From NCBI GenBank assembly GCA_964619465.1, contig CAZUES010000001.1, positions 198,730 to 262,729 on the forward strand: a stretch of 64,000 nt of DNA, given 5' to 3'. A program made the position numbers and the translations under genes. This document shows, in pieces, positions 1 to 20,798 of the stretch. Under the pieces are notes generated by a model, which was not told the origin of the DNA, ran no database searches, and saw only the letters and a program-made list of their open reading frames with translations. The stretch's first letter is position 1, and each line of letters begins with the position of its first letter. The DNA is from an uncultured Gemmatimonas sp. (GTDB taxonomy: Bacteria > Gemmatimonadota > Gemmatimonadetes > Gemmatimonadales > GWC2-71-9).

Positions 1-2979
1 CTTGGCCAGCGCGGCCACCAGTTCCGTCATCTGCTCGGGCTGACTCGGGTTCACCGCATAGGTCGTCGCATCGATCTGCTGGAATCCGGCGCCCGGCAGG
101 ACCGAGATCACGGTCCCATCGCGTCCCAGGCGGGTTGCAAGTGATGCACCCAGTCCCTGCTCGTCACGGAAAACCAGCCAGCGCATACCGGCCGCCAGTG
201 TCGTCTTCGCAGCAAGTGGGGCGCGCTGCCAGGTGGTTTCGTAGAACCACTGGCCGACATCGTTCCGCCGTGCCAGCGACGGCTTGGCTGCCGTGGCGCC
301 CTTGCCGGGCTGAATGAAGTACTGCTGGTGCTCGAAGGGATAGGTCGGCAGCGGAATCCGACGGCGCTGCTCGCCCTTCCAGAGACTGCTCCAGTTGGGT
401 ACGACACCGCCGAGCCAGAGGCGACCCACCATGGCGAGCGCGTGCGCGACGTCCGAGCCGGCCTCGTCCGGGTGGCGCATCGAGGTCAGCGTCGGTTGAT
501 CTGCCTTGCGATCGGAGTGGAGCGATGCCAGCGTCGCGAGGACTCGGCCCGGGCCGATCTCGAGCAGCACTCGACCTTCATCTCGGAGCAGTACGCCGAT
601 GCCATCGGCAAACCGAACCGTGTGGCGGAGATGTCGGACCCAGTACTCGGGGCTAGTCGCCTCCTCGGGCTTGATCCAGTCGCCCGTCACGTTGGAGACG
701 AATGGACGAGTCGGCGGGCTCAGCGCGATCCGGCGGAAAAACTCGCCGAACTCCTTGAGGATCGGCTCGAGCATGGCCGAATGGGCCGCGATGTTGATGC
801 GGATACGGCGGCAATCGATCTCATCGGCGGCGAGGGCCTTTTCCAGCGCATCGAGCGCGTGAAGGGGGCCGGACGCAACACAGAGTTCCGGCGCGTTGAT
901 CGCGGCAATCGAAAGCTCGGCGGGCAGCCGCTTCTCGAGGTCCGCGACGGCCAGCGGCACGCTGAGCATGCCGCCCGGCGGAATCCGCTCGAACAGCTTG
1001 CCACGCAGCGTAACCAGGGCCAGGCCGTCGGCGAGCGAGAAGACGCCGGCGAGATGGGCGGCGGTGTACTCGCCCATGCTGTGCCCGATCATCGCCTGCG
1101 GTTCGAGGCCCCAGGCCAGGCACAGCTTGGCCATGGCGTACTGGGTGATGAACAGGCAGGGCAGCGAGCGCGACGGGCGTTCGAGTTCCTCGCCCAGGCG
1201 GTCCCGATCGGCCGGAGCCGCCAGCAGCAGGGACTTGAGATCCCAGTCGAGTTGGGGCTGGAGCAGGGCAACGCACTCGTCCACGGCCGCGCGGTAGACC
1301 GGCTCCCGCTCGTAGAGATCCGCACCCATACCCGCGTACTGCGCACCGCCGCCGGCAAACATGAACGCCAGGGCGCGCTTTCGGTCGGAGACCTGAGCGG
1401 TCGGCACGACTTTGGGATCATTTCGCTCGAGCAGGTCGGCCGCTTCCGATGCGCTCTGCGCCACCACCATCCGGCGGTGAGCCAGTGCCTGGCGTCCGTT
1501 GGCGAGCGTAAACGCAACGTCGGCCGGCGAGTTCGGGTCCGTGCGCAGAGACGCAGCCAGGTTGGCACTGGCCGCATCGAGCGCCGTCGGGGTCTTGGCG
1601 GACAGCAGGTAGAGCTGGTGCTCGCGCGACGGTCCTGAGGGCGGCAGTGCCGGTGCCTCTTCGACGATCACATGTGCATTGGTACCGCCGGCACCGAGCG
1701 AACTGATACCGGCGCGGCGCGGGCCGCCATCGGTGGTCCAGTCACGGAGTTTGTCGTTCACGAAGAACGGGCTCGAAGCGAAGTCGATAGCCGGATTCGG
1801 CTCGGTGTAGTGCAGCGAAGGCGGAATCTGTCGATGCTTGAGCGCCTCGACCGTCTTGATCACGCTGGCAATGCCGGCTGCGGTATCGAGGTGCCCGACA
1901 TTCGACTTGAGCGATGCGATGGCGCAATATCCCGTTCGCTCCGCACCGGCGCCCTGGTAGGCCTGGGTCAACGCGGCGATCTCGATCGGGTCGCCGACCG
2001 GCGTCGCGGTGCCATGGCACTCGACGTACTGAATCGATTCCGGATCCACGTCCGCCAGCGCCAGAGCCTCAGCCACGGCCTGGGCCTGGCCGTCGACGCT
2101 CGGCGCCAGGAAACCGACTTTCTGGGCGCCGTCGTTGTTGATCGCGGAGCCCTTGATCACGGCGTGGATCGTGTCGCCGTCGCGGATGGCGTCCGCGAGG
2201 CGGCGGAGGACTACGATTCCTGTGCCGCTGCCGAATACGGTGCCCTCTGCCTTGGCGTCGAACGCGCGGCAGTGGCCATCCGGCGCCATGATCTCGCCCT
2301 CTTTGTACAGGTAGCCGACCGGATGCGGCTGCTTGACGGTGGTGCCCCCCGCGAGTGCCATGTCGCACTCGTTGTTGAGCAGGCTCTGGACCGCCAGGTG
2401 GACCGCCACGAGCGACGTGGAGCAGGCCGTCTGTACGTTGACGCTGGGGCCGCGCAGGTTCATCAGATACGATGCACGGGTGGCGAGGAAGTCCTTATCG
2501 TTGCCGGTGTGCCGGATCAGAAAGAAACCGACGTTCTCGACCAGCTCGGGGTTGGTGAGCAGGTTGAACATCATGTAGACGTTGGCGCCGCAACCGGCAA
2601 AGACGCCGACCGATCCGCCGAAGCGCTCGGGTGCGTGGCCGGCGTGTTCCATTGCCGTCCAGGCGACTTCGAGGAAATGGCGTTGCTGCGGGTCCATGAT
2701 GGCCGCCTCGCGCGGAGCAAACCCGAAGAAGCCCGCGTCGAATCCGGCCATGTCGGGCATCTGAAACGAGGCGCGCACATAGTCCGGATCGGTCAACAAC
2801 TCGTCGGAAACCCCTGCGGCGCGCAACTCCTCGTCGGTCAGTCGAGTGACGCTCTCGACGCCGTCGCGAAGATTGCTCCAGAAAGTGGCGACGTCCGAGG
2901 CACCCGGGAACCGGCCCGCCAGGCCGACGATGGCGATGTCGGTCTCGGCGGAACCGGGAGGAAGCTGCTGCTCGCTCAT
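1..2979 (-). CDS. Type I polyketide synthase (KS-AT-, continuing past the left edge; partial)
   Basis: Missing from the ORF track because there is no stop in the window. Manual translation from ATG 2979 gives MSEQQLPPGSAETDIAIVGLAGRFPGA, KS motifs VQTACSTS, ECHGTATPVGDPIE and KSNVGHL, AT motifs GHSMGEY and NIAAHS, then post-AT LPTYPFE and a WFYETTW...WLVF.D..GLG segment resembling the start of a KR structural subdomain. Motifs sampled along the gene all fall in one frame, down to about position 120. Confidence 0.95.
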   Translation of the reverse strand, partial: MSEQQLPPGSAETDIAIVGLAGRFPGASDVATFWSNLRDGVESVTRLTDEELRAAGVSDELLTDPDYVRASFQMPDMAGFDAGFFGFAPREAAIMDPQQRHFLEVAWTAMEHAGHAPERFGGSVGVFAGCGANVYMMFNLLTNPELVENVGFFLIRHTGNDKDFLATRASYLMNLRGPSVNVQTACSTSLVAVHLAVQSLLNNECDMALAGGTTVKQPHPVGYLYKEGEIMAPDGHCRAFDAKAEGTVFGSGTGIVVLRRLADAIRDGDTIHAVIKGSAINNDGAQKVGFLAPSVDGQAQAVAEALALADVDPESIQYVECHGTATPVGDPIEIAALTQAYQGAGAERTGYCAIASLKSNVGHLDTAAGIASVIKTVEALKHRQIPPSLHYTEPNPAIDFASSPFFVNDKLRDWTTDGGPRRAGISSLGAGGTNAHVIVEEAPALPPSGPSREHQLYLLSAKTPTALDAASANLAASLRTDPNSPADVAFTLANGRQALAHRRMVVAQSASEAADLLERNDPKVVPTAQVSDRKRALAFMFAGGGAQYAGMGADLYEREPVYRAAVDECVALLQPQLDWDLKSLLLAAPADRDRLGEELERPSRSLPCLFITQYAMAKLCLAWGLEPQAMIGHSMGEYTAAHLAGVFSLADGLALVTLRGKLFERIPPGGMLSVPLAVADLEKRLPAELSIAAINAPELCVASGPLHALDALEKALAADEIDCRRIRINIAAHSAMLEPILKEFGEFFRRIALSPPTRPFVSNVTGDWIKPEEATSPEYWVRHLRHTVRFADGIGVLLRDEGRVLLEIGPGRVLATLASLHSDRKADQPTLTSMRHPDEAGSDVAHALAMVGRLWLGGVVPNWSSLWKGEQRRRIPLPTYPFEHQQYFIQPGKGATAAKPSLARRNDVGQWFYETTWQRAPLAAKTTLAAGMRWLVFRDEQGLGASLATRLGRDGTVISVLPGAGFQQIDATTYAVNPSQPEQMTELVAALAK

Positions 2980-2982
2980 TGC

Positions 2983-5900
2983 TTACTGATCCTGTGAATC
3001 TGGACTCGCGCCGGCCGGGCGACGCCCGCGCCGGCGCTGCATCGCTTCGCGCCGGGCATCGGCCCGCGCTTGTGAGACTTCCGTAGTGGCGACGGCCGGA
3101 GCTGCGCCGCCCAAATGTTCCGCCAGCGACCGGATGGTCGGGAAGCGGAAGAGATCGGTGATCGACACCGGACGATCGATCGCGCTCCGAAGCCGCGAAT
3201 GCACTTTCACCGTCAGGAGCGAGTGTCCGCCGATATCGAAGAAATTGTCGTTGACGCCGACCTGGGGAACCCGAAGCGCTTCCTGCCAGATCGCGGCAAT
3301 GGTCTGTTCGAGTTCGCTGCCCGGCTGTACGTAGCTGGCAGCTGGTGCGGCGCTGTGGTCGGGCGCGGGCAGTGCTTTGCGGTCGATCTTGAGATTGGGC
3401 GTCCGCGGCAACCGGTCGAGGACCACGACATGGCTCGGGACCATGTACTCCGGGAGCCGCGCGCCGATGGCCTGGCGGATTTCCATCGGGTCGGGTCGCT
3501 GCCCTGTGCGGGCAACCAGATAGGCCACGATCCGTTTGTCTCCCGGAACATCTTCTCGCGCAATGACCACGGCTTCCCGTACCGTCGGGTGCTGCTCGAC
3601 GATGGCCTCGATCTCGCCCAGTTCGATCCGGTGGCCGCGAATCTTGACCTGGTGATCGAGCCGGCCGAGGAACTCGAGCTGCCCGTCCATGCGCCAGCGC
3701 ACCAGGTCGCCGGTGCGATAGACCCGGTTGCCCGGCGCCAGCGGATCGTCGATGAACCGCTCGGCCGTCAGCTCCGGACGATTCAGATAGCCGCGCACCA
3801 CGCCCGCGCCGCCGATCAGCAGTTCGCCGGCCACGCCGACGGGAACCGGTTCGAGGTTCCGATCGACCACGCGGCAGACCGTATTGGCAATCGGCGTTCC
3901 GAGCGACACCGACGTGACGCCCTGTTCCAGCCGATGGGTGGTCGACCAGATGGTCGTTTCCGTCGGACCGTACATGTTGATGACGTCACCCTGGACCAGC
4001 TGCTCCAGCTCGCCGGCCAGAGCGGGCGGGAACGCCTCGCCGCCGATCATCAGCCTGGTGAGTCCGGCAAAGCCGGGTTTGACCTCGGGCTGCGCGGCCA
4101 GCATCGCCGCCATCGACGGCGTGCACTGGAAATGGGTCACATTCCAGCGGCGGAGCTGGGCAGGAATGTCATAGTCGGCTGAGGCGCTCGCGGAGGACTC
4201 CTCCGAGCGACGGCGCAGTTCCGCGAGATCCTCCAGGCCCGCCAGGGTGTCGTCGATCGAAACCCCGAAGTCGATCAGGCAGGCAATCTCGTCGACGTCC
4301 ATGCCCTTGACCCGCTCGACCATCTCGAACGTCGTCTCGGGCGTTCCCATCAGGGCGCTGGTGTCGAAGTACCGATGGAAGGCATGGTCGAGCAGCGCCT
4401 CCATGTCCTCCTTGGTAAACTCGGCCGATCGCATGTCCTGACCCCGTCCCTCCGCCAGGCCCTTGATCAGGTCTACGGAGGTGCGCAGGTATTCTCGGAA
4501 CGGATGCCAGACCCGGGCTTTGACCTGTTCCATGTCGGGATGGACATAGGTATGGAGCATCAGGCTGACATGCCCGGCTCCCGCGTGGCCGGCTCGGCGC
4601 CAGGCCGCCCGGTACGCAGCAACCTTCTCGCGCAGAATCTCGGGGCTCTGTCCCAGCAGATGGGTCAGGATGTTGGCGCCGAGTTCTCCGGCTTTCTCGT
4701 ACGTCGCGGTGGTGCCGGCGGCGGTTACCCAGATCGGAAGTTCCGGCTGAATCGGGCGCGGCAGCGTCGTGATCGAGACATCCTTACCGGCTCCCCCCGG
4801 CATGGTAACCGCCTCGCCGCGCCAAAGGCGCCGGACGGTATCGATCATTTCCACCATGATCTCGCGCCGCCGCTCGTAGTTCTGCGGAGCAAAGACGAAA
4901 TCGCGATCGTGCCAGCCCGAGGCGAACGCCAGACCGACGCGACCGTTCGACAGGTTGTCGATCACGGCCCAGTCTTCGGCCACGCGGACGGGGCTGTGGA
5001 GCGGAAGCACCACGCTTCCCGTGCGAATCTTGATCCGCGACGTAATGGCCGCGATCGCTCCGCTCACCACCGCCGGGTTCGGGTAGAGACCGCCGAAGGC
5101 GTGGAAGTGTCGTTCGGGCGTCCAGATTGCCTCGAACCCGTTGGCGTCACCGAACTTGGCACCTTCGAGCAGCATGCGGTATCGGTCGCCGGGGGCGGCA
5201 TCGGCGGCGCTCGAGAAGTAGAAGAGGCTGAAGCCCAGCTTGCGATCCGACCGGGGAGTGCCCGTCTGCGCGCGCACTCGTTCGGGGTCGCCCTGGATCA
5301 CGACGTGGAAGCCGCGCGTCAGGGTCCAGAAGAGTTCGAGCACCGAGATGTCGAACGAGATGCTGGTGACCGCGAGCCAGGTGCCCGGCCCGTCGCCGCC
5401 GATCCGCTCGTCCATCCCGAGGAAGAAGTTGACCACGTTTCGGTGCTCGATCATGACGCCCTTGGGACGCCCGGTCGAACCCGAGGTGTAGATCACGTAG
5501 GCCAGGTCACTCGGCGCGGCGCCGCCATCCAGGTTGTCGTCCGGCAGGCGCGCAAATGACACCGCATCCAGGTCGACCCGCAGAACCTTGGCAGTCGTGG
5601 CCGGCAAGCGATCGACCAGGCGACCTTGGGTGATGATGACCGGCGCCGCGCTGTCTTCCAGCATGAAGGCGACCCGATCGGCCGGATAGGCCGGGTCCAG
5701 AGGCAGGTACGCACCTCCCGCCTTGAGGGTCGCCAGCATGCCGACCAGCATCTCGAGCGACCGCTCCGCAAAGATGCCGACCGGAACCCCGGCAGCCACG
5801 CCCAGCTCGCGGAGGCGTCGAGCCAGCCGATTCGCGCGCGTGTTGAGGTCATGGTAGCTCAGCGTCTCGTGCTCGAAGCTTGCGGCGGGCGCATCGGGCG

Positions 5901-8900
5901 TCAGCGCCACTTGGCGTTCGAACTGCGTGACCAGGGTGTCCGCGGCAGGCAGGGCTCGAACTGTGTCGTTCCAGACCCGATCGATCTGCACGTGCTCCGC
6001 CGGCGTCAGGATCCCCAGGCGCTCGATCGGCAGATCGGGTGCTCTGGCGGCTGCGCCGAGCAGCGTGACATAGTGGTTACCCAGGCGCTCGATCGTCGCT
6101 GCGTCGAACAGGTCGGTGTTGTACTCGAGATGGCCGACGTACCCCCCATCTTGCACGGCAAGCGAGAGGGTCAGGTCGAACTTGGCGGCGCCGGCGTCGA
6201 CGTCGATCTGTTCCAGGACCACGCCCGGCAGCGCCAGCGGGTGGACCGGCGTGTTCTGCAGGATGAAGAGCACCTGGAAGAGCGGTGAACGGCTCAGGTC
6301 GCGCGGCAGGTGAAGCCCCTCGACCAGGCGTTCGAATGGCAGGTCCTGATGCTGGAAGGCGCCCAGGGCCACTTCGCGAACCCGGCCGAGCAGCGTCCGG
6401 AAGCTGGGATTGCCGGCCAGGCTGGTGCGCAGCGCCAGGGTATTGACGAAGAACCCGATCAGCCCTTCCGTCTCGAGCCGGGTCCGTCCAGCCGTCGGCG
6501 ATCCGACAATGATGTCATCCTGCCCGGTGTACCGGCTGAGCATGGCCTGAAAGGCGGCCAGCAGCACCATGAACGCGGTGGCATCCTCTTCGGCGCCGAG
6601 TGTTTTGAGTCGGGCGGCGAGTTCGGTCGGAATCTCGAAACGGTGCGTCGAGCCCTTGAAGGTCTGAATAGGGGGACGCGCGCGGTCGGTCGGCAAGTCG
6701 AGTGTCGGCAGCGGTGCGGCGAGCAGACGGGTCCAATGCTCGAGCTGCCGGGCCAGGACCGATTCACTCAGCCAATCCCGCTGCCAGGCCGCGAAGTCGC
6801 CGTACTGGATCGGCAGCTCGGCCAGCGGCGAGGGTTCGCTCGACGCGTAGGCGCGGTAGAGTGCGCCGATTTCCTGATAGAGCACCCCGCGCGACCACCC
6901 GTCGGAGACGATGTGGTGCATCACGATGACCAGGAGGTGGTCGTCTGCGGACGTTTTGAGCAGCGTACCCCGAAACAGCGGTCCATTACTCAGGTCGAAC
7001 GGCTGCGAGGCAAGGTCTGCCGCGCGGCGGGTCAACGTCTCGTCGCTTGCGGGGGAGATCGTCTCGACGGCGAGGGTAAATCCATCGGCCGGTCTGACCA
7101 CCTGGCGGGCCACGCCATCGGTGCTGGGGAACGTCGTGCGCAGCGCCTCGTGACGCCGGACGATTTCCGTCAGGGTGCGTTCGAGTGCGCTCCGATCCAG
7201 TGCGCCGCGCATCCGGAATGCGGCCACCAGATTGTAGGCGGCGCTGTCCGGCTCGATCTGGTTGAGCACCCAGAGTCGTTCCTGAGCAAACGAGAGCGGG
7301 GCCGTCGTCCCCTCGGGCAGCCGGCCGATGGCGATGTCGGCCCCGCCGGATTCCTGGCCGAGTGCCACGACGGCCGCGGTCAGCGCAGCAACCGTTGGCT
7401 GCTCGAACAGTACTCTGAGCGGTGGTTCGGCGCCGAAGACGGAACGCACCCGCGCCAGCACCCGAACGGCCATCAGCGAGTGGCCGCCGATCTCGAAGAA
7501 ATGATCGTGGACGCCGACCGGAGACACTCCGATCACGTCCTCCCAGATGCGCGCCATGGCCCGCTCGGCGTCGGTCCGCGGCGCCAGGTACGCGGCGCCG
7601 TCGGCGCCGAAGGTAACGGGCAGGGACGACAGGGCGCCACGGTCGAGCTTGCCATTCGGCGTCCGGGGCAACGCAGGCAGAACCTGGAAGGCCGACGGGA
7701 CCATGTACTCCGGGACCGAACGGAGCAGGTGTTCCCGAAGCTCTCGACTGGTCGGAGCAGTGCCGTTCGAGGACGTCACGAAGGCAACCAGTGCCGTTTC
7801 GCCCTGGTGCTCGCGGGCCTGCACGGCCGCCGCCGTTACCTGCGGATGGCGCTGCAGCGTTGCTTCGACTTCTTCCACCTCGACCCGGTGGCCGCGCACT
7901 TTGAGCTGGTTGTCACGTCGCCCGGTAAAGGTGAGCAGTCCGTCCGGACGCCGAAGGCCCAGGTCGCCGGTGCGATAGAGCCGCCGCCCGACGGCCGGGT
8001 GTTCAACGAACCGCTCGGCGGTCAGATCCGGGCGATTGTGATAGCCGGGACCGACCGCAGCGCCGCCGATCCAGATCTCTCCGGCGGTACCGTCCGGCAC
8101 CGGTGAGCCCGACTCGTCCAGCAGGTGGATTTCGGTGCGCGGCAAGGGCGATCCAAGCGGAGCGACCGCGCTATCGGCCAGGAGGCTCGGGGTCAGGGTC
8201 ACGGTCGAGACGATGCCTGCCGTCTCGGTCTGTCCATACATGTTGATGAAGCGGGTCTGGCCGCCGGTGAGGGCCAGCCAGCGCTGAACCAGCGCCGATG
8301 GAAGCGGCTCGCTGGCCGACAGCGTCAGGCGCAGCGTCGAGCCTGCCAGCTGCGAGGGATCACTCTCCGCGGTTTCGATCAGGCGTGACCAGTACGACGG
8401 CACCAGGTCGATCACGGTTACCCGGGCGCGGCGGCACACCTGCAGCAGCTCCCGCGGGTCGGCAATCTCGGCGCGGCGCGCAATGACCACGCAGCCGCCC
8501 GTCAGCAGGGGCGCGAACAGCTGACGCACCGACGACGAGAAGGCCAGCGATGCGGTATGGAGGAATCGGTCCTGAGCTGCCAAACCGATCGCTTCTGTGA
8601 TGGCTGCGCTGTAATGGCTGAGGTTCCCATGAGTGATGATGACACCCTTGGGTTGGCCGGTTGAGCCCGACGTATATATCAGATAGGCTGGTGTGCCCGG
8701 TTCGACGTTTTCCGTCTCGGCTGGTTCGGCGGTGGTGGTGTCGTCGAGCAGGATTTCCCGTACGCCGGCCTCGGCCAACTCGCCGGAGCGCGCCCGGCTG
8801 GTGAGCAGGGTGGTTGCACCGGAGTCTCTCAGGATCCAGGTCATGCGGTCGCGCGGGTACGCCGGATCGAGGGGAACCCACGCTGCGCCGAGCTTCAGAA

Positions 8901-9150
8901 TTCCGAGGATTGCGGCGACCATGTCGCCGCCGCGATCGAGGTAGAGGCCGACGAAGTCACCGGACCGGACTCCGGCGGCCTTGAGTCGACCAGCTACCAG
9001 GGCCGCTCTCGCGTCGAGTTCAGCATAGGTCAACTGCTCGTCGCCCCAATGCACGGCCGACGCCCGAGATCGGGCTTCCAGTTGGGTCGCGATTACCTTG
9101 GCGACGCCGCCGGTCCACGGTTGTGCTGCAATGGGCGAAGTCGTGGTCAT
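2983..9150 (-). CDS. NRPS, A-T-C-A(interrupted by a luciferase-like monooxygenase domain)-T, 2055 aa
   Basis: Two A3 motifs (YLIYTSGSTGQPKG, YVIYTSGSTGRPKG), two carrier motifs (FFEIGGHSL, FFDIGGHSL) and C-domain HHIVSDG. LLM segment KLGFSLFYFSS...PERHFHAFGGLYPNP...GLAFASGWH at ~4215-5243. Stop is 3 bp from the PKS start. Confidence 0.96.
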   Translation of the reverse strand: MTTTSPIAAQPWTGGVAKVIATQLEARSRASAVHWGDEQLTYAELDARAALVAGRLKAAGVRSGDFVGLYLDRGGDMVAAILGILKLGAAWVPLDPAYPRDRMTWILRDSGATTLLTSRARSGELAEAGVREILLDDTTTAEPAETENVEPGTPAYLIYTSGSTGQPKGVIITHGNLSHYSAAITEAIGLAAQDRFLHTASLAFSSSVRQLFAPLLTGGCVVIARRAEIADPRELLQVCRRARVTVIDLVPSYWSRLIETAESDPSQLAGSTLRLTLSASEPLPSALVQRWLALTGGQTRFINMYGQTETAGIVSTVTLTPSLLADSAVAPLGSPLPRTEIHLLDESGSPVPDGTAGEIWIGGAAVGPGYHNRPDLTAERFVEHPAVGRRLYRTGDLGLRRPDGLLTFTGRRDNQLKVRGHRVEVEEVEATLQRHPQVTAAAVQAREHQGETALVAFVTSSNGTAPTSRELREHLLRSVPEYMVPSAFQVLPALPRTPNGKLDRGALSSLPVTFGADGAAYLAPRTDAERAMARIWEDVIGVSPVGVHDHFFEIGGHSLMAVRVLARVRSVFGAEPPLRVLFEQPTVAALTAAVVALGQESGGADIAIGRLPEGTTAPLSFAQERLWVLNQIEPDSAAYNLVAAFRMRGALDRSALERTLTEIVRRHEALRTTFPSTDGVARQVVRPADGFTLAVETISPASDETLTRRAADLASQPFDLSNGPLFRGTLLKTSADDHLLVIVMHHIVSDGWSRGVLYQEIGALYRAYASSEPSPLAELPIQYGDFAAWQRDWLSESVLARQLEHWTRLLAAPLPTLDLPTDRARPPIQTFKGSTHRFEIPTELAARLKTLGAEEDATAFMVLLAAFQAMLSRYTGQDDIIVGSPTAGRTRLETEGLIGFFVNTLALRTSLAGNPSFRTLLGRVREVALGAFQHQDLPFERLVEGLHLPRDLSRSPLFQVLFILQNTPVHPLALPGVVLEQIDVDAGAAKFDLTLSLAVQDGGYVGHLEYNTDLFDAATIERLGNHYVTLLGAAARAPDLPIERLGILTPAEHVQIDRVWNDTVRALPAADTLVTQFERQVALTPDAPAASFEHETLSYHDLNTRANRLARRLRELGVAAGVPVGIFAERSLEMLVGMLATLKAGGAYLPLDPAYPADRVAFMLEDSAAPVIITQGRLVDRLPATTAKVLRVDLDAVSFARLPDDNLDGGAAPSDLAYVIYTSGSTGRPKGVMIEHRNVVNFFLGMDERIGGDGPGTWLAVTSISFDISVLELFWTLTRGFHVVIQGDPERVRAQTGTPRSDRKLGFSLFYFSSAADAAPGDRYRMLLEGAKFGDANGFEAIWTPERHFHAFGGLYPNPAVVSGAIAAITSRIKIRTGSVVLPLHSPVRVAEDWAVIDNLSNGRVGLAFASGWHDRDFVFAPQNYERRREIMVEMIDTVRRLWRGEAVTMPGGAGKDVSITTLPRPIQPELPIWVTAAGTTATYEKAGELGANILTHLLGQSPEILREKVAAYRAAWRRAGHAGAGHVSLMLHTYVHPDMEQVKARVWHPFREYLRTSVDLIKGLAEGRGQDMRSAEFTKEDMEALLDHAFHRYFDTSALMGTPETTFEMVERVKGMDVDEIACLIDFGVSIDDTLAGLEDLAELRRRSEESSASASADYDIPAQLRRWNVTHFQCTPSMAAMLAAQPEVKPGFAGLTRLMIGGEAFPPALAGELEQLVQGDVINMYGPTETTIWSTTHRLEQGVTSVSLGTPIANTVCRVVDRNLEPVPVGVAGELLIGGAGVVRGYLNRPELTAERFIDDPLAPGNRVYRTGDLVRWRMDGQLEFLGRLDHQVKIRGHRIELGEIEAIVEQHPTVREAVVIAREDVPGDKRIVAYLVARTGQRPDPMEIRQAIGARLPEYMVPSHVVVLDRLPRTPNLKIDRKALPAPDHSAAPAASYVQPGSELEQTIAAIWQEALRVPQVGVNDNFFDIGGHSLLTVKVHSRLRSAIDRPVSITDLFRFPTIRSLAEHLGGAAPAVATTEVSQARADARREAMQRRRGRRPAGASPDSQDQ

Positions 9151-13417: not shown

Positions 13418-14039
13418 GCTCCACGCTGACGCGGCGGATCAGCTCAGCCGCCATGGCGTCGGCATCGCGCTCTTCCAATTGTCCGTCGAGCGGAAGTACG
13501 ATACGAACCAGTGCCTCTTCGGTACGGCGGGAAATCGCCGCGTCGAGCATGAGATCGAGCTTGACCCGGTACTCGTTCGATTCGGTCCGCCCGCGCCCCT
13601 GATACCAGTAATAGACCACGGCCTTCTGGTCCTTGTTGGCAACCATGAAGCGGTTGACCCGAACCGGGTCGTCGCCTTCGCGGGCGACTTCCATCGGTTG
13701 TGACGCGAGGGCTTCCCAGCCTGCACCGGGAAGGCAGTTCTTGGGCGAGTGAATCGTCTTCCCGCGTGCCTGGCTGGCGTAGTATCCAACGTACACCGAG
13801 AAATCCGGTCGATCGGATGCACGATACAATCGGAACAGGTAGTCGGTTACTCCGGCAACCCGGACCTCGTCGTCCGTCATCGTGATGTCGCTCCCCAGGA
13901 ACCCGTCGATCTGGTTAGGGAATGCGGTAAGGGGCGCGACCAGGTTCATGGTGCGCTGCATCCGGGTCGAGCCGTTGAGCAGGCACCCGACCAGCAGAAT
14001 CGTCGTGGGAACCCAGGCGGTTCGTACGGTAACGGTCAT
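13395..14039 (-). CDS. epsI: EpsI family protein (exosortase-associated)
   Basis: N-terminal TM, YVGYYASQ, IHSPKNCLPGAGW, VYYWYQ, ALVRI; directly downstream of the exosortase. Confidence 0.88.
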   Translation of the reverse strand: MTVTVRTAWVPTTILLVGCLLNGSTRMQRTMNLVAPLTAFPNQIDGFLGSDITMTDDEVRVAGVTDYLFRLYRASDRPDFSVYVGYYASQARGKTIHSPKNCLPGAGWEALASQPMEVAREGDDPVRVNRFMVANKDQKAVVYYWYQGRGRTESNEYRVKLDLMLDAAISRRTEEALVRIVLPLDGQLEERDADAMAAELIRRVSVELKQNLPA

Positions 14040-14920
14040 CCGGCCCGTCTCTTCGCGAATCGGTCTTCCAGCGACGAGATCGCCCAGGCAAACCCGCCCA
14101 GGATGCCAAAGGCAATCACAAACATGGCCCAGCCCTCGGTCATGTGCATGAATCCCTCACCGAGTTCGGGATCGACGAAAAACACCAGAAATCCGGTCAG
14201 GAAAACCCGAACGCCATTCAGAACGACCGCCACCGGAATGGCGCTCATGACCAATGCCAGTCGGGACGCCGGGTAGCGGAGCCAAAGCCCGCCGGCCAGC
14301 ACACCCAGGCTGAGCAGCGCCGTGAGAGAGCGCAGGCCGCTGCAAGCCTCCGTGACGAAAAGACGGTGCCCGGGAAGCAGAATCAGGTTGCCGTCGAGTC
14401 GAACTGGAATCTGTCGCATTTCGAGGAGCGCGGCACCGATTCGTGACGCCTGGAACTGGAGCGGCAGAGCGATGGTGCCGACCAAGACGGCTGGAAGCGG
14501 GATCGACAGCACCAGCAGGGTAAAGGGCAGCCACCAGGCTTTGAGTCGGGCCCAGCCTGCGAAGTACACCACCAGTCCCGCCAGCGCAAAGACCATGGAC
14601 ATCCGCATCGTGAAGAGCTCGGCAGCCAAGCTCGACAGATAGCGGAGTGCGACGGCTCCGCACAGAATCGCGATACCCCAGTTGCGCGCCGGCGCCAAGG
14701 CAACGCCCTGCCGGCTTTTCCAGGCGAGCCAGGCGGCGACCGGTCCGAGCAGTAGACCATGCCCGGCTTCCGGATCATTCCACCAATCGCGGAGGAGGAG
14801 GGCAAACGGCTCGGCGAACAGAATGCCGAAGGCAGCGGCGCCGAATGCGTAGGGGAGCCAGCTACCGGGGAAAACCGACTTGAGGCCCCGGCTTGCGCTC
14901 GGAGCGGCGACGCTCGTCAC
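14036..14920 (-). CDS. Exosortase (EpsH family)
   Basis: Multi-TM protein with HGLL, VTEACSGLRSL (Cys), LNGVRV (Arg) and MHMTEG (His). GTG 14920 overlaps the upstream TGA (GTGA). Confidence 0.92.
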   Translation of the reverse strand: MTSVAAPSASRGLKSVFPGSWLPYAFGAAAFGILFAEPFALLLRDWWNDPEAGHGLLLGPVAAWLAWKSRQGVALAPARNWGIAILCGAVALRYLSSLAAELFTMRMSMVFALAGLVVYFAGWARLKAWWLPFTLLVLSIPLPAVLVGTIALPLQFQASRIGAALLEMRQIPVRLDGNLILLPGHRLFVTEACSGLRSLTALLSLGVLAGGLWLRYPASRLALVMSAIPVAVVLNGVRVFLTGFLVFFVDPELGEGFMHMTEGWAMFVIAFGILGGFAWAISSLEDRFAKRRAG

Positions 14921-15702
14921 CAGCCGCCCTTGCGGAACAGGACGACCGGAATGGTTTTGAGCATGATCGCGAGATCGGTGCGGAAGCTCTGCGTCCGGAC
15001 ATACTCGAGATCGAACTGCAGCTTGCGGGCGACGTCGTCCATGTTGCGGTCGTACTGCTGGCTGACCTGGGCCAGGCCTGTGATACCGGGTCGTGCCCGC
15101 TGGCGGAGCTGATAGTCTTCCAGCTCGTCCGCCAGGCGCAGAAAGATGCTTGGACGCTCCGGCCGAGGTCCGACGACGTTCATGTCGCCCTTGAGCACGT
15201 TGAAAAGCTGCGGCAACTCGTCGAGTCGGGTCTGCCGGAGCAGACCGCCGAGCCAGGTTACCCGGGGATCCTTTTCCTTGGCCCACACCGCGCCGGTGCC
15301 GCTTTCCGCATCGACCCGCATGGTGCGGAACTTATAGATCACGAACGGACGTCCGCCCAGATCGCAGACGCGCCGCCGGCTGATCCGGAGCGGCACGTCG
15401 CCGGGCAGCCGATGATCCATGCCGATTCGGGTTTGCCGGTACAGGATCGGTCCCTTCGAAGTCAGCTTGGTCAAAACCGCGATGACGATCATGATCGGCA
15501 TCGCAATCACCAGCAAAACGATCGCAACTGCTACGTTGAGCCAGCGCCGGGTTCCCTCCACTTGAGGAACCAGCTGTTGCGCCTGCAAGGACGTGCCGCT
15601 TTCCTCCGCCTGAGTCCGACGGACAGGCTGCGGCGAACGAGGTCGCGGATTGACCGCGATGCTCGACCCGCGCAGTTCGGAGGTGCGAGGCACGGATTCC
15701 AT
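14917..15702 (-). CDS. Priming sugar (polyprenyl-phosphate glycosylphosphotransferase, WcaJ/WbaP C-terminal type)
   Basis: One TM, IYKFRTM, RQTRLDELPQLFNVLKGDMNVVGPRPE, PGITGLAQV. ATG at 15702 is coupled to the upstream TGA (TGATG). Confidence 0.93.
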   Translation of the reverse strand: MESVPRTSELRGSSIAVNPRPRSPQPVRRTQAEESGTSLQAQQLVPQVEGTRRWLNVAVAIVLLVIAMPIMIVIAVLTKLTSKGPILYRQTRIGMDHRLPGDVPLRISRRRVCDLGGRPFVIYKFRTMRVDAESGTGAVWAKEKDPRVTWLGGLLRQTRLDELPQLFNVLKGDMNVVGPRPERPSIFLRLADELEDYQLRQRARPGITGLAQVSQQYDRNMDDVARKLQFDLEYVRTQSFRTDLAIMLKTIPVVLFRKGGW

Positions 15703-16547
15703 CAAAATATCGAGATTCCCAGAACGAGGACCCCCAGCAGCAGCTGGGCCGGGAGCAACCACCGCATCATGTTCGACCCGGGAGGCAGCGCCGCGTCCAC
15801 CGATCCGCCAACGATGATTTCGTCGCCGCCGTGCAGGTTCAGATTGTCGAGCGACTGCCCGCCGGCAACGGCAGCCCGCAGCTGCTCGCGTGAGACGATT
15901 TCCCGACTGGCTCGCCGTACGATGGTCTTGTTGACATCGGACGCCATCGTCGGGCCACCGGCCGCCATGATCGCATCGCTGACCAGTCGATCAGCCGGAA
16001 GATTGTAATAGCCGGGGTTCGATACGGCGCCAAGGACGGCGAGCCGAATGTACGACGCCTGAATGAGCACCTGCGGGTTCTTGACGTACTTACCGATTTC
16101 CTTGGTAAGGTACTCGGAACTCTCCGATCGAAGCACGCCTTCGAGCGAGATCGGCGGCAGGTTGGGAAACGCCACGACGCGGCCGGGCAGGATAGTAAAA
16201 GTGCCGGTCAGGCCGGTGTCTCCGACAACCGCAACTTCGATCTGATCGCCAACCTGGAAGTCTCCCTGGACCAGGCGCTGCTGGACCATCGCGGCTTCGG
16301 CTTCCTTGGCTCGCCTGAGCGAGCCGCTGTAGCCCGTAGAGGAGGTGATCTCCCGCAACTGAACCAGGGCCGCTTCGAGCTCCGGGCGGGTTGCCTGGGC
16401 TCTGCGGACGTCGATGAGCGGGTCCTGTGCCTCGAGATGCGAGGCGGTGCCAACGATCAACCCGACAAGGGCAATCCGCACCCACCTTCGTACCCCACCT
16501 GATCGTACCCTCATCCCGAACCCTTTGGCGAAGAATCGATGTAGCAT
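15702..16547 (-). CDS. Polysaccharide export protein (Wza-like, Poly_export + SLBB)
   Basis: Signal-like N-terminus, FQVGDQIEVAV, LPPISLEG, VLGAVSNPGYY, AIMAAGG, LHGGDEIIV and a C-terminal hydrophobic helix. Confidence 0.8.
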   Translation of the reverse strand: MLHRFFAKGFGMRVRSGGVRRWVRIALVGLIVGTASHLEAQDPLIDVRRAQATRPELEAALVQLREITSSTGYSGSLRRAKEAEAAMVQQRLVQGDFQVGDQIEVAVVGDTGLTGTFTILPGRVVAFPNLPPISLEGVLRSESSEYLTKEIGKYVKNPQVLIQASYIRLAVLGAVSNPGYYNLPADRLVSDAIMAAGGPTMASDVNKTIVRRASREIVSREQLRAAVAGGQSLDNLNLHGGDEIIVGGSVDAALPPGSNMMRWLLPAQLLLGVLVLGISIF

Positions 16548-17860: not shown

Positions 17861-20287
17861 TCAGTTCCGCGGGAGCGAGATCGGCTGATCGGCCGGTGTC
17901 GCCGATTCCTCGTTTTCTCCTCGCGTCGTGTACTCGTAGGCGTAGTACTTGTACGATCCCTTGCCGATATCGATGTGATTCAGGACGGCACCGAGCAACC
18001 GAGTCGGCAGTCGATCCATCAGCTGGATCTTCGCCTCGGCCAGTTCACGGTCCGTTTCCCCGGCGCGCAGTACCAGGATGGCATTCCCGGTGACGGTGCT
18101 GAGCACGAACGGATCGATGCCGGCGCCGAGCGGCGGACTGTCGATCAGGACGACCTGGTATTGTGAGCGAAGCGTCTTGACCAGGTCGACCATCGCAGAT
18201 GAGCCGAGCAGCTCCGGGCCGCGCGAGGCACGGGTTCCACAAGGAATCAACGTCAGCTGCGGATGCGCAGCGGTCTGACGGCAGACCTGTTCCAGGGTTG
18301 CTTCACCATTCAGGTAGTCCAGCAGGCCGGGGCGGCGATCGCCACCGAAGACGCGGTACAACTCGCCTCGACGGGTGTCGCCGTCGATCAGTACCGTTTC
18401 ATAGCCCGCTTGCGCGAACGACATGGCCAGGTTCGATGAGATCAGAGACTTACCGTCCCCGGCCATCGGGCTGGTGATGGTGAGCAGAATCGGGTCACCG
18501 TCGGCAAAAGAATGCGCCAGGTTGAGCCGAATTGAGCGGAAGGCCTCGACGATCTGAGCCGTTTCCACATCAGAGAGCACCGCACCTCGACTCTTGCGCA
18601 CCACGGGAATCGCTCCCAGGATCGTCAGCCCGAGACCTTGCGAGACCTGGTCGGGATAGCGGAACCGCTTATCGAGCCGATCGAGGACGATTGCGAGAGC
18701 GAGGGCCAGCCCTAAGCTGGCGACAACGCCGAACAGGACGATTCGCGGGGCCGTATTGGACGTCGGGTAGCCTGCGATTTCGGCGCGGTCGAGAATCCGG
18801 ACATCGGGTGTCGCGGTCAGTTCGGCCAGCCGGGCTTCCTGCATCCGTGCCTGCAGATTCTGACGCAGCGTGACGGTCGACTGCGCATCGCGCGCAAGCC
18901 TGTCTTCCATGGCCGTCCGGACCGGAATCTGCCGCAACTCGCGGGAGTCGCGATCGATTTCGGCCTGCAGCGTGGCTTCCTGTGTGCGCAGCTGGCTGAT
19001 CAGGCGCTCCGCGTAGAGCGGGACGGTGCGTGAGGTGAGTTCACCGAGATCGGCCACCAGTTTTTTGATGCCGCCGTACTCGTCGGTGTAGCGAGTGCGG
19101 AGTCCCCGCAACTCGGCTTCCGTCCGAGACACTTCGCTCAGCACGGTCATCAGATCCGGGGCATTACGGACGGCAGGGACCATATTGTAGGCGTCAACGG
19201 GAACCGACCCGGTTTGCCCGCCCTGACGGACCAGCGCTTCGATGGCTCGCCGGTCCTTCTCGAGATTGCTCAACTCGAGGCGTTTGGCCGTGAAGCTGGT
19301 CATCACCGTTGTCTGCGTCTGCTGCAGGCCTGCAGGGAGGGGCGCCTGCTGCTCGAGGCGTGGCTCGGTGATCGTAGTGACGCGATAGGTTTCGAGGGCC
19401 GTTTCCGCGTTGCGCATTGCGGAGTCGGCGATGCGGATCTGTTCCCCGAGATCTTTCGTGACGTTGGCGATCTGATCTCGCTTGAGACCATCTGCGACCT
19501 TCATGAACTGATCGAGGATCGCATTGAGAATGGTCGCCGCCCGCTCGGCGTTCGAGTCCTGGAGCCCGATGACCATCAGGGCGCTGTTCTGGACCACTCG
19601 CACCTGGAGAGCGCTGGCGAGTCCTTCCGAAATGTTGCGCGGGACAGTGACCGTGAACGGTACCTCGACACCGGCTGCGAGTGACCCCTGAGGCGGAGCC
19701 CACTGAAATCCGATCGATCGTCCGATCGAGTCCCCGATGATGCCGGTCTCGACGGGGATGCTCTTACCCATGATCAGGCTGTACCGCTGGCCCGACGCAT
19801 CGACCTGAAGCCGGTAGTCACCGGGCTGGAACCGAGGGGCCAGATCGAACTGCTGGAAAGCCCCGCCAGTTTCCGGAGGATGCCAAAGATAGAGGCGATT
19901 GTCCCGGACCACCGGGTCGATCACTGCAAAGCTGCGAATCAGCTGGGGCCACGAGTTGTCCCGCAGAACCCCATCCGGCCGGATCGGTCCGCTTCCCGAC
20001 TGACCCGAGGGGGCGATATACACGGTTGCGGACGAGGTGTACGATGGTTGGATGAAGCGAGTAGCGAAAATGCTCCCGACCGTTCCAAGGGCCAAGATGG
20101 TCAACACGAGCCACTTATACCGGAATACGGCCGAGATCATCCGGCCGATATTGAGGCCTCCCGCTTCGTCGCCCTCATCATGCGCGTCGGGGGATGCCAG
20201 GCTGGCGTCGACCTGACCGAGCGCGGAGCCGGTCGTGGGTTGGAGAGCACTGCCCTGGGCAGATCCGCCGAACATCTGATTCTTCAT
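17861..20287 (-). CDS. wzc: Wzc-like polysaccharide co-polymerase / tyrosine autokinase
   Basis: Two TMs flanking a coiled-coil periplasmic region; EAFRSIR, Walker A SPMAGDGKS, LIDGDTRRG, LIDSPP and Tyr cluster YKYYAYEY. Confidence 0.93.
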   Translation of the reverse strand: MKNQMFGGSAQGSALQPTTGSALGQVDASLASPDAHDEGDEAGGLNIGRMISAVFRYKWLVLTILALGTVGSIFATRFIQPSYTSSATVYIAPSGQSGSGPIRPDGVLRDNSWPQLIRSFAVIDPVVRDNRLYLWHPPETGGAFQQFDLAPRFQPGDYRLQVDASGQRYSLIMGKSIPVETGIIGDSIGRSIGFQWAPPQGSLAAGVEVPFTVTVPRNISEGLASALQVRVVQNSALMVIGLQDSNAERAATILNAILDQFMKVADGLKRDQIANVTKDLGEQIRIADSAMRNAETALETYRVTTITEPRLEQQAPLPAGLQQTQTTVMTSFTAKRLELSNLEKDRRAIEALVRQGGQTGSVPVDAYNMVPAVRNAPDLMTVLSEVSRTEAELRGLRTRYTDEYGGIKKLVADLGELTSRTVPLYAERLISQLRTQEATLQAEIDRDSRELRQIPVRTAMEDRLARDAQSTVTLRQNLQARMQEARLAELTATPDVRILDRAEIAGYPTSNTAPRIVLFGVVASLGLALALAIVLDRLDKRFRYPDQVSQGLGLTILGAIPVVRKSRGAVLSDVETAQIVEAFRSIRLNLAHSFADGDPILLTITSPMAGDGKSLISSNLAMSFAQAGYETVLIDGDTRRGELYRVFGGDRRPGLLDYLNGEATLEQVCRQTAAHPQLTLIPCGTRASRGPELLGSSAMVDLVKTLRSQYQVVLIDSPPLGAGIDPFVLSTVTGNAILVLRAGETDRELAEAKIQLMDRLPTRLLGAVLNHIDIGKGSYKYYAYEYTTRGENEESATPADQPISLPRN

Positions 20288-20364: not shown

Positions 20365-20641
20365 AGACGGTCAGACCGGACCTTCTCCCTTCGAGACCAT
20401 TACCTGCTGCCCAATGGCCCGCCTGACGGCAACACATCAACGCGATTGTGTAGCATTTTCGGTCCATCTGGTTGGTCAGGCCTGCCATCGACACGCACCT
20501 CTTGTGGCTAAAAACAGCACACTTTTGCAAGTTGGTGCTCTCATCTCTTCACTGTAACACGCCCGCTCCAGTTCCGGTGCACAATCTCGGCACATCGCGG
20601 AGTGTGTAGTTGTTTCATCCATCCATCACCAAAGCTATAGA

Positions 20642-20681
20642 TGTTGCTTGCACGCCGCATTATTGTTGCATGTGCGCATTG
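20642..20681. promoter_or_regulatory. Second copy of the tandem TGTTGC-N4-RCGCA motif
   Basis: TGTTGCTTGCACGCCGCATTATTGTTGCATGTGCGCATTG; same 22-bp period as 9334-9373. Confidence 0.6.
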
Positions 20682-20750
20682 GTGAAAATTGCCGGTGTTG
20701 TCAGCGACCCGCATCAAGGTCAGGAAACGGATCTAGAGCTGCTGTCTTTA

Positions 20751-20765
20751 CGGCACAGTTCTCGC
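20751..20765 (+). promoter_or_regulatory. Sigma54-like promoter upstream of the activator gene
   Basis: CGGCACAGTTCTCGC: GGCAC-N5-TCGC with correct spacing and one mismatch to TTGC. Confidence 0.45.
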
Positions 20766-20798
20766 CTGAAAGTGATGCAACCGGGCAGCGCAGAACCT

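What the first reader, a model, noticed from the sequence alone, without database searches (positions are those of the whole stretch)
3110..5950. Glycine-type adenylation domain split by a ~340-aa luciferase-like monooxygenase at an uncommon site
Seen: the LLM (~4215-5243) lies between the A4 motif (FDISVLELFW) and the helix leading to THFQCTPS, i.e. between A4 and A5. Established: characterised interrupted A domains mostly carry inserts at A2-A3 or A8-A9, and LLM-in-NRPS (MupA/Atu3671-like) is known but its chemistry is poorly defined. By-eye alignment to GrsA PheA gives the code D-I-L-Q-M-G-M-I-W-K, close to the glycine code DILQLGLIWK, although the pocket residues fall on both sides of the insert. 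Inference: FMN-dependent on-line oxidation of the tethered acyl-glycyl intermediate.
Basis: partly seen in the sequence, partly recalled or inferred. Interest (0 to 1): 0.62.

Follow-up and report, generated by a model that had tools for sequence, protein, structure and literature searches.

The report
Glycine-loading domain with built-in oxygenase
The gene really does encode a glycine-activating peptide-synthetase domain with a complete flavin oxygenase spliced into it. This design has been known since the myxothiazol pathway and is common in bacteria; what remains unstudied is the small assembly line it serves inside a slime (exopolysaccharide) gene cluster.

Summary
On the minus strand (window 2983-9150) lies a 2055-aa NRPS with the layout A*-T-C-A(LLM)-T. 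A 342-residue MupA/Atu3671-type luciferase-like monooxygenase (window 4213-5238) sits between motifs A4 (FDISVLELFW) and A5 (NMYGPTE) of the second adenylation domain. The specificity code is DILQMGMIWK.

The site is not unexplained. The myxothiazol and melithiazol modules MtaG and MelG carry their monooxygenase at a4-a5, also in a glycine domain (PMC10204066). Four MOX-type Gly domains have the code DILQLGMIWK, one residue away (PMC12283262).

The arrangement is very common. A homologue search hit its 8000-candidate ceiling, and all 112 analysed relatives have DILQxGxxWK and an A4-A5 spacing near 460 aa. The oxygenase keeps 79 of 80 family-conserved positions. An AlphaFold model rebuilds a normal A-domain fold around it.

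The most likely function is FMNH2/O2-dependent alpha-hydroxylation of the N-acylglycyl thioester on T2.

It differs from MtaG in that the module is internal. It feeds a KS-AT-KR-DH-T polyketide module followed by two alpha/beta hydrolases, and this four-gene operon recurs in polysaccharide loci.

Verdict: a new member of a known kind, set in an orphan cassette linked to glycan loci. Interest is modest.

The parts
2983..9150 (-). NRPS gene, 2055 aa: A*(starter)-T-C-A(LLM)-T
   Evidence: ORF list and translation; Pfam and NCBIfam domain hits
7621..9084 (-). First adenylation domain (residues ~23-510). It is uninterrupted and lacks the amino-binding Asp (FSSS in place of FDxS). This is the subject of another finding.
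   Evidence: Pfam AMP-binding 23-371 plus AMP-binding_C; sequence LAFSSSVRQ; TIGR03098 'exosortase A-associated acyl-CoA ligase' 467 bits, below the 592 cut-off
7369..7554 (-). Carrier domain T1 (residues 533-594, GGHSL)
   Evidence: Pfam PP-binding
5986..7308 (-). Condensation domain (residues 615-1055), with an intact HHIVSDG motif at 6898-6918
   Evidence: Pfam Condensation 376 bits; motif position
5287..5913 (-). N-terminal part of the Gly adenylation domain (motifs A1-A4). A3 YTSGSTGRPKG is at 5458-5490 and A4 FDISVLELFW at 5326-5355.
   Evidence: Translation; motif coordinates; AF2 model residues 1-218 fold as A-core
4213..5238 (-). Embedded luciferase-like monooxygenase (residues 1305-1646), TIGR04020 family. 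It is flanked by two short low-confidence linkers.
   Evidence: TIGR04020 511 bits vs cut-off 244; 370 bits to PDB 6KET PuwE; 79 of 80 columns that are >=95% conserved are kept; ERHF at 5089-5118 and GR at 4933-4950 align to LuxA-type E43-H44-H45-F46 and R107
3361..4167 (-). C-terminal part of the Gly adenylation domain (rest of the core with A5-A8, plus the A-sub domain with A9-A10). THFQCTPS is at 4114-4137, A5 NMYGPTETT at 3952-3978 and the A10 Lys motif at 3370-3399.
   Evidence: Pfam AMP-binding and AMP-binding_C 1846-1920; motif coordinates; Foldseek matches to whole A domains across the insert
3112..3315 (-). Carrier domain T2 (residues ~1946-2013, GGHSLLTV at 3208-3231). It is the presumed tether for the glycyl substrate of the monooxygenase.
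   Evidence: Pfam PP-binding second stretch; coordinates
1..2979 (-). Start of the downstream PKS gene (KS-AT in the window). The full protein is 1879 aa, KS-AT-KR-DH-pseudoAsub-T, and runs to 2657 bases before the window start. The start codon lies 3 bases after the NRPS stop.
   Evidence: Translation and Pfam; KS Cys/His/His motifs present

Best explanation
This is an MtaG/MelG-type 'MOx-interrupted' glycine adenylation domain working in an elongation module.

1. The two A-domain pieces fold together around the inserted TIM-barrel oxygenase. They activate glycine and load it on T2.
2. The C domain acylates the glycine nitrogen with the acid carried on T1.
3. The embedded two-component-type flavin monooxygenase takes FMNH2 from a reductase encoded elsewhere in the genome. 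It hydroxylates C-alpha of the N-acylglycyl thioester while this hangs on T2.
4. The module has no thioesterase and is followed by an intact KS-AT-KR-DH-T module. I therefore favour that the N-acyl-alpha-hydroxyglycyl unit is handed on intact, as in solanimycin B. It would be extended by one malonate, reduced and dehydrated to a carrier-bound 4-(acylamino)-4-hydroxybut-2-enoyl unit.
5. The two downstream alpha/beta hydrolases then release or transfer this unit.

Shown here: domain identities, the insertion site, the Gly-type code, conservation, and the operon structure. Inferred: glycine activation, alpha-hydroxylation, the order of steps, and retention of the hemiaminal.
For: - Site and code: the insert is between A4 and A5, the same site as in MtaG/MelG (PMC10204066). 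The code DILQMGMIWK is one residue from DILQLGMIWK, shared by four MOX-type Gly domains (PMC12283262). All 112 LLM-interrupted relatives have DILQxGxxWK.
- Oxygenase state: the LLM scores 370 bits to the PuwE oxygenase domain (PDB 6KET). PuwE is assigned alpha-hydroxylation of a carrier-bound acyl chain (PMC4219810). Other TIGR04020 members are also proposed alpha-hydroxylases of thioester intermediates (PMC8739492). The LLM keeps 79 of 80 positions that are >=95% conserved.
- Fold: the AF2 model has pLDDT 82, with low confidence only in the two linkers. Complete A-domain structures superpose across the insert (TM per target 0.73 for 1AMU, 0.80 for 4D56).
- Cofactor supply: flavin reductases are present in the genome.
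- Internal position: the KS catalytic motifs are intact, and the C, T1, T2 and A core motifs are present.
- Onward passage is normal for this domain type. At least 25 of 112 relatives have a C domain in cis after the LLM module. Relatives carrying both LLM and a methyltransferase sit mid-line before a KS.
- The same LLM-Gly module is paired with KS-AT-KR-DH modules in many phyla.
Against: - There is no biochemical evidence for this protein or its close relatives.
- Glycine specificity rests on the 10-residue code alone. My first apparent support from LgrA was an artefact of summing two domains.
- In the only genetically studied a4-a5 cases (MtaG/MelG), the hydroxylated glycine collapses rather than being passed on.
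- The retained case (SolF) has its oxygenase at a8-a9, not a4-a5.
- LuxA's catalytic His44 position is Arg here, although this holds for the whole family.
- No flavin reductase lies in the cluster.
Confidence: 0.5

Rival explanations
1. MtaG-type cleavage in mid-line. The LLM hydroxylates C-alpha and the carbinolamide collapses on T2. The starter acid leaves as its primary amide. The remaining glyoxylyl-S-T2 primes the PKS, which converts it to a 4-oxobut-2-enoyl thioester. The N-acyl cap is sacrificial.
For: This is the documented fate in myxothiazol and melithiazol, with the oxygenase at the same a4-a5 site, and the fate proposed for FshJ. Two cassette types with quite different N-caps converge on the same LLM-Gly module plus KS-AT-KR-DH partner. 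One uses an Asp-less A-T-C, the other a formyltransferase. This fits a cap that does not end up in the product.
Against: A whole A-T-C loading unit would be spent on a leaving group. There is no TE next to T2. Many relatives continue with C-A-T modules in cis, or add an O-methyltransferase that would stabilise the hemiaminal. alpha-Hydroxyglycine is retained in solanimycin B and skyllamycin.
Confidence: 0.28
2. The LLM acts on a different carrier-bound substrate or performs different chemistry. It might hydroxylate the starter acyl on T1 or the polyketide on T3. It might instead perform a Baeyer-Villiger-type chain shortening, as proposed for CalD and MndB.
For: TIGR04020 members are assigned several reactions on thioester intermediates (PMC8739492). 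Three carrier domains are within reach in this two-protein system.
Against: The LLM insert is strictly coupled to a Gly-type code in all 112 relatives, whatever lies upstream or downstream. This points to the glycyl unit as the substrate.
Confidence: 0.1
3. The LLM is an inactive structural remnant, and the module simply incorporates glycine.
For: LuxA His44 is replaced by Arg. No reductase gene lies in the cluster.
Against: 79 of 80 highly conserved family positions are retained. LLM identity to relatives (60%) is as high as that of the flanking A domain (58%) and the two co-vary (r = 0.86). The Arg is conserved across the family, including in PuwE. The full-length TIGR04020 score is twice the cut-off.
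Confidence: 0.03

Closest known systems
MtaG (myxothiazol) and MelG (melithiazol) modules, C-A-MOX-A-T-TE
   Same: A luciferase-like/flavin monooxygenase is inserted between a4 and a5 of a glycine-specific A domain. The Gly code is one residue from the MOX-type code DILQLGMIWK. The expected reaction is C-alpha hydroxylation of the tethered N-acylglycine.
   Different: MtaG and MelG are terminal modules with a TE, and release a terminal amide plus glyoxylate. Here the module is internal, has no TE, and is followed by a KS-AT-KR-DH-T PKS and two alpha/beta hydrolases. I did not align the MtaG/MelG sequences themselves.
SolF module 4 of solanimycin biosynthesis (Dickeya solani)
   Same: An internal glycine module with an embedded flavin monooxygenase. 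The alpha-hydroxyglycine is kept and the chain goes on.
   Different: The oxygenase in SolF sits between a8 and a9, not a4 and a5.
PuwE oxygenase domain (puwainaphycin), PDB 6KET
   Same: The closest solved relative of the inserted domain: 370 bits, aligned end to end, with the ERHFHAFGG and GRVG motifs identical. It is assigned alpha-hydroxylation of a carrier-bound chain.
   Different: PuwE's oxygenase lies between PKS and NRPS modules, not inside an A domain. Its substrate is a beta-amino fatty acyl chain.
MOx-bearing crz-like NRPSs (Serratia, Pseudomonas) and FshJ (fischerazoles)
   Same: MOx lies inside a glycine-recruiting A domain. These were recognised by genome mining, and the Gly code is recovered after excising the insert in silico.
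   Different: Those modules are terminal (T-TE), and truncated or amide products are proposed for them.
F-A(LLM)-T plus KS-AT-KR-DH-ACP-TE orphan cassette (Roseobacter-type; Cellvibrionaceae, Planctomycetota and others)
   Same: The same LLM-interrupted Gly domain (about 45-53% identity) is paired with the same kind of PKS module, next to glycosyltransferases.
   Different: The cap is a formyltransferase instead of A-T-C. The PKS ends in ACP-TE instead of pseudo-A-sub/T followed by two separate hydrolases.

Membership tests
MtaG/MelG-type MOx-interrupted glycine A domain | Luciferase-like (TIGR04020) monooxygenase embedded within an NRPS adenylation domain | tested here: met
   PF00296 180 bits; TIGR04020 511 bits (cut-off 244). 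It is flanked on both sides by AMP-binding stretches in one ORF.
MtaG/MelG-type MOx-interrupted glycine A domain | Insert lies between core motifs a4 and a5 | tested here: met
   FDISVLELFW is at 1266-1275, the LLM at 1305-1646 and NMYGPTE at 1725. Spacing is 459 aa vs 99 aa in the uninterrupted A1. The a4-a5 site for MtaG/MelG is taken from PMC10204066, not from my own alignment.
MtaG/MelG-type MOx-interrupted glycine A domain | Glycine-type specificity code (MOX-type domains: DILQLGMIWK) | tested here: met
   DILQMGMIWK, one conservative change (L to M). All 112 of 112 relatives have DILQxGxxWK (PMC12283262).
MtaG/MelG-type MOx-interrupted glycine A domain | Terminal module followed by a thioesterase; chain release as a terminal amide | tested here: not met
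   No TE in the protein. T2 is followed by a separate KS-AT-KR-DH-T gene 3 bases downstream.
MtaG/MelG-type MOx-interrupted glycine A domain | C-alpha hydroxylation of tethered N-acylglycine | not testable with these tools
   Needs enzyme assay and mass spectrometry.
TIGR04020 MupA/Atu3671 natural-product LLM family | Full-length match above the curated cut-off, with family-conserved residues retained | tested here: met
   Model positions 1-341 of 341, 511 bits. 79 of 80 columns at >=95% conservation are kept. It is the only copy above the cut-off in this genome.
TIGR04020 MupA/Atu3671 natural-product LLM family | Binds reduced FMN supplied by a separate reductase | not testable with these tools
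   R1404 aligns to LuxA-type Arg107 (phosphate site, from my own knowledge of LuxA). Two PF01613 reductases lie elsewhere in the genome.
SolF-type internal alpha-hydroxyglycine module | Oxygenase inserted between a8 and a9 | tested here: not met
   The insert is at a4-a5. The a8-a10 region is contiguous.
SolF-type internal alpha-hydroxyglycine module | Internal position with chain extension after the hydroxylating glycine module | tested here: met
   A downstream PKS with intact KS motifs follows. Retention of the hydroxyl itself was not tested.
Exosortase A system-associated ligase/hydrolase cassette (TIGR03098, TIGR03100, TIGR03101) | Scores above the curated cut-offs for the ligase and the two hydrolases | tested here: not met
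   A1 scores 467 bits against a cut-off of 592. Hydrolase 2 scores 102.6 against 202.75, and hydrolase 1 scores 76.6 against 168.45. These are relatives, not members.
Exosortase A system-associated ligase/hydrolase cassette (TIGR03098, TIGR03100, TIGR03101) | Located beside an exosortase (EpsH) gene | tested here: inconclusive
   EpsH is at window 14036-15286, about 5 kb from the NRPS start. The same holds in G147 and L002. G171 and G271 have the operon but no exosortase in the genome.

The most novel reading that the evidence does not exclude
The four-gene operon is a dedicated, widely distributed pathway for decorating a surface glycan. The operon comprises NRPS A*-T-C-A(LLM)-T, PKS KS-AT-KR-DH-pseudoAsub-T, and two hydrolases of the exosortase-A-associated type. 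It would build a carrier-bound, reactive C4 unit from glycine. This unit is either a vinylogous N-acyl-alpha-hydroxyglycine or, after hemiaminal collapse, 4-oxobut-2-enoate. The two hydrolases, or a neighbouring AT3 acyltransferase, would then transfer the unit onto the exopolysaccharide or a PEP-CTERM protein. That would make an NRPS-PKS product a covalent glycan or cell-surface modification rather than a free metabolite.
Probability: 0.13. Interest if true: 0.7.

Novelty: new member of a known kind. Interest (0 to 1): 0.3.

Why it matters
The domain itself adds nothing new. It is another copy of the MOx-in-glycine-A-domain design, described for myxothiazol in 1999 and now seen in thousands of database proteins.

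The useful points are practical:

- Substrate predictors fail on such domains unless the insert is excised.
- The a4-a5 version is used far more often inside assembly lines than at their ends. The textbook 'terminal amide' role is therefore probably a minority use.
- Here it belongs to a conserved but uncharacterised NRPS-PKS-hydrolase operon that keeps turning up in exopolysaccharide loci of several phyla.

If that operon decorates a glycan, it would link assembly-line chemistry to biofilm matrix biology.

Tried and rejected
1. LgrA as support for glycine. With the LLM cut out, LgrA topped the PDB search at 689 bits, and I first took this as support. The alignment showed that the score sums two A domains (Val 319 + Gly 369 bits). 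It also showed that LgrA's Gly pocket differs at the code positions. I dropped this argument.

2. Literature on NRPS/PKS genes in exosortase or EPS loci. The search found nothing. Searches for 'interrupted adenylation' with 'luciferase-like monooxygenase' and for DILQLGLIWK also found nothing.

3. Strict exosortase linkage. I rejected it: two genomes carry the operon but have no exosortase.

4. Flavin reductase in the cluster. None was found; there are two elsewhere in the genome.

5. MtaG/MelG sequences. I did not obtain them, so identity of the site rests on a published statement and on the MOX-type code.

6. Foldseek on the LLM part. The hit list was filled with A-domain structures and did not list the LLM part separately. 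The LLM fold rests on the 6KET sequence match and the predicted beta/alpha pattern.

7. One Pfam call failed on a wrong frame and was repeated.


Full report
**What is there**

The feature lies on the minus strand. ORF 2983-9150(-) encodes a 2055-aa protein. Pfam finds the following domains:
- AMP-binding, in three stretches
- two AMP-binding_C
- two PP-binding
- one Condensation domain (615-1055)
- Bac_luciferase at 1305-1616

NCBIfam TIGR04020 is the MupA/Atu3671 family of natural-product luciferase-like monooxygenases. It matches residues 1307-1646 over the whole model, at 511 bits against a cut-off of 244. The architecture is therefore A*-T-C-A(LLM)-T.

The LLM occupies window 4213-5238. 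It follows the A4 motif FDISVLELFW (5326-5355). It precedes THFQCTPS (4114-4137) and the A5 motif NMYGPTETT (3952-3978). The A4-to-A5 distance is 459 residues, against 99 in the uninterrupted first A domain of the same protein.

All other core motifs of the split domain are present: A2, A3, A7, A8 and the A10 lysine. So are the HHxxxDG motif of the C domain and the GGHSL serines of both carriers.

**Specificity code**

I read the code at the GrsA-equivalent motif positions. This mapping comes from established knowledge of the Stachelhaus code.

A 2025 survey reports that four MOX-type Gly-activating domains all share DILQLGMIWK (PMC12283262). That is one conservative change away.

I withdrew one argument. 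With the LLM cut out, LgrA topped the PDB search. The alignment showed that the score summed LgrA's two A domains, and that its Gly pocket differs.

**Is the oxygenase intact, and does the A domain reassemble?**

- *Closest structure.* The closest solved relative of the insert is the PuwE oxygenase domain (PDB 6KET). It scores 370 bits, aligned end to end.
- *Conservation.* In an alignment of 112 LLM-interrupted homologues, 80 LLM columns are at least 95% conserved. The window protein keeps 79 of them, and the exception is Ile for Val. Identity to relatives is 60% in the LLM and 58% in the A-domain parts. The two co-vary (r = 0.86), as expected for one unit under joint selection.
- *Comparison with LuxA.* Against a LuxA-type chain, the ERHF motif aligns to E43-H44-H45-F46, and R1404 aligns to Arg107. 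The Arg at the His44 position is a family trait shared with PuwE.
- *Model.* An AlphaFold2 model of residues 1068-1935 (19-sequence alignment) has mean pLDDT 82. Low confidence is essentially limited to the two linkers and a few loops.
- *Fold comparison.* Foldseek superposes complete stand-alone A domains across the insert. The TM-score normalised to the target is 0.73 for GrsA-PheA (1AMU) and 0.80 for ApnA A1 (4D56). Both folds are therefore predicted to form.

**How common it is**

The homologue search hit its ceiling of 8000 scored candidates. All 120 listed proteins except one carry PF00296 inside an NRPS. They come from Gemmatimonadota, Acidobacteriota, Chloroflexota, Myxococcota, Bacteroidota, Verrucomicrobiota and Proteobacteria. 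JGI even has a standing product name for the combination.

All 112 analysed relatives have DILQxGxxWK. Their A4-A5 spacing is 446-477 aa.

Within Gemmatimonadota, TIGR04020 is found in 16 of 301 genomes, in 10 of 127 genera. It is mostly embedded in open frames of 1550-2490 aa. It is thus a patchy accessory trait.

**Comparison with what is known**

Published statements place the flavin monooxygenase of MtaG (myxothiazol) and MelG (melithiazol) in a loop between a4 and a5 of a glycine-specific A domain. It hydroxylates C-alpha. The carbinolamide then collapses to a terminal amide, and the TE hydrolyses the glyoxylyl thioester (PMC10204066; PMC11411415; PMC11342130).

The same design has been reported elsewhere:
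- 38 crz-like clusters
- FshJ of the fischerazole pathway

SolF of solanimycin has such an oxygenase at a8-a9, in an internal Gly module, and keeps the alpha-hydroxyglycine.

For this particular insert, however, it is the canonical site, and the chemistry is defined at the pathway level.

**What differs here**

The module is internal. The NRPS stop is followed after 3 bases by a PKS gene. Using the whole genome, I read this gene as an 1879-aa protein with the order KS-AT-KR-DH, then an AMP-binding_C-like pseudo-subdomain, then a PCP-type carrier.

Two alpha/beta hydrolases follow. Their best NCBIfam matches are 'hydrolase 2' and 'hydrolase 1, exosortase A system-associated', both below cut-off.

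The operon sits among the following genes:
- GT2 and GT4 glycosyltransferases
- an exosortase (EpsH, 14036-15286)
- Wza-like and Wzc-like genes
- a sigma-54 activator/kinase pair

The same four-gene operon recurs in these settings:
- a cellulose-synthase-like locus with an AT3 acyltransferase (L001)
- an exosortase/Wzc locus (L002)
- two other Gemmatimonadales genomes (L003, L004)
- two genomes without any exosortase, where it lies next to a Wzx flippase, an AT3 acyltransferase and a PPTase

A second, very widespread cassette pairs the same LLM-Gly domain with the same kind of PKS module, but capped by a formyltransferase and ending in ACP-TE. It again lies next to glycosyltransferases.

Among the 112 relatives, none has a TE directly after the LLM module. 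At least 25 continue with a C domain in cis. Relatives with both LLM and a methyltransferase sit mid-line in FAAL-primed assembly lines, ahead of a KS.

**Mechanism**

I commit to the following, with a confidence of 0.5:
1. The reassembled A domain loads glycine on T2.
2. The C domain N-acylates it with the T1-bound acid.
3. The embedded oxygenase uses FMNH2 from a reductase encoded elsewhere (two PF01613 genes) and O2. It hydroxylates C-alpha of the N-acylglycyl thioester.
4. The hemiaminal is passed to the KS.
5. It is extended, reduced and dehydrated to a 4-(acylamino)-4-hydroxybut-2-enoyl thioester.
6. The hydrolases release or transfer it.

The main rival (0.28) is MtaG-like collapse on T2. 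In that case a glyoxylyl starter would enter the PKS. That two unrelated caps converge on the same downstream module is compatible with this rival. An oxygenase acting on a different substrate (0.1) or a dead oxygenase (0.03) is unlikely, given the strict Gly-code linkage and the conservation.

**Verdict**

The domain is a new member of a known kind. The surrounding NRPS-PKS-hydrolase operon, linked to glycan loci, is uncharacterised and is the more interesting object. Earlier notes of this scan describe the same domain type in at least a dozen other genomes, which agrees with its being common.

Noticed in passing
outside the window, G000:C1:196072-196700 (about 2000-2657 bases before the window start), minus strand: The PKS downstream of the NRPS ends with an AMP-binding_C-like 'pseudo A-subdomain' (28.9 bits, PF13193). 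A PCP-type carrier (GGHSL) follows, instead of the usual ACP-TE. This layout is conserved in L001-L004, G171 and G271.
   Followed up: partly
window 769-792 (-): The AT domain of the PKS has IAAHS where malonyl- or methylmalonyl-specific ATs have HAFH or YASH (the motif assignment is from my own knowledge). The extender unit is therefore uncertain.
   Followed up: no
outside the window, G000:C1:194376-196072 (-): Two tandem alpha/beta hydrolases follow the PKS. Their best hits are TIGR03101 (102.6 bits) and TIGR03100 (76.6 bits), the 'exosortase A system-associated' hydrolases, both below cut-off. The first A domain likewise hits the exosortase-A-associated ligase TIGR03098 at 467 bits (cut-off 592). 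The operon looks like an expanded relative of that uncharacterised cassette.
   Followed up: partly
L001:23484-24695 and L041:7073-8263: A membrane AT3-family acyltransferase (PF01757) lies right next to the NRPS-PKS-hydrolase operon in two unrelated genomes. It may be the enzyme that moves an acyl product onto a polysaccharide.
   Followed up: no
L006:8252-12961 and L006:15069-21587 (also L005, L007, L009-L011, L015, L017-L021): A widespread F(formyltransferase)-A(LLM)-T gene is paired with a KS-AT-KR-DH-ACP-TE gene. In L006 the pair is interleaved with GT2 glycosyltransferases and a hexapeptide acyltransferase. It occurs in Cellvibrionaceae, Shimia, Planctomycetota, Myxococcota and others.
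   Followed up: partly
L039:10001-18541, L040:10001-18574: Relatives have the Gly A domain interrupted twice, by the LLM and by an FkbM-type methyltransferase (PF05050). They sit mid-line in FAAL-primed lipopeptide-like assembly lines ahead of a KS.
   Followed up: partly
window 14036-15286 (-), 15702-16547 (-), 17861-20287 (-), 20610-23428 (+): Exosortase EpsH, a Wza-like exporter, a Wzc-like co-polymerase/kinase and a sigma-54 response regulator plus histidine kinase lie just upstream of the NRPS operon.
   Followed up: no
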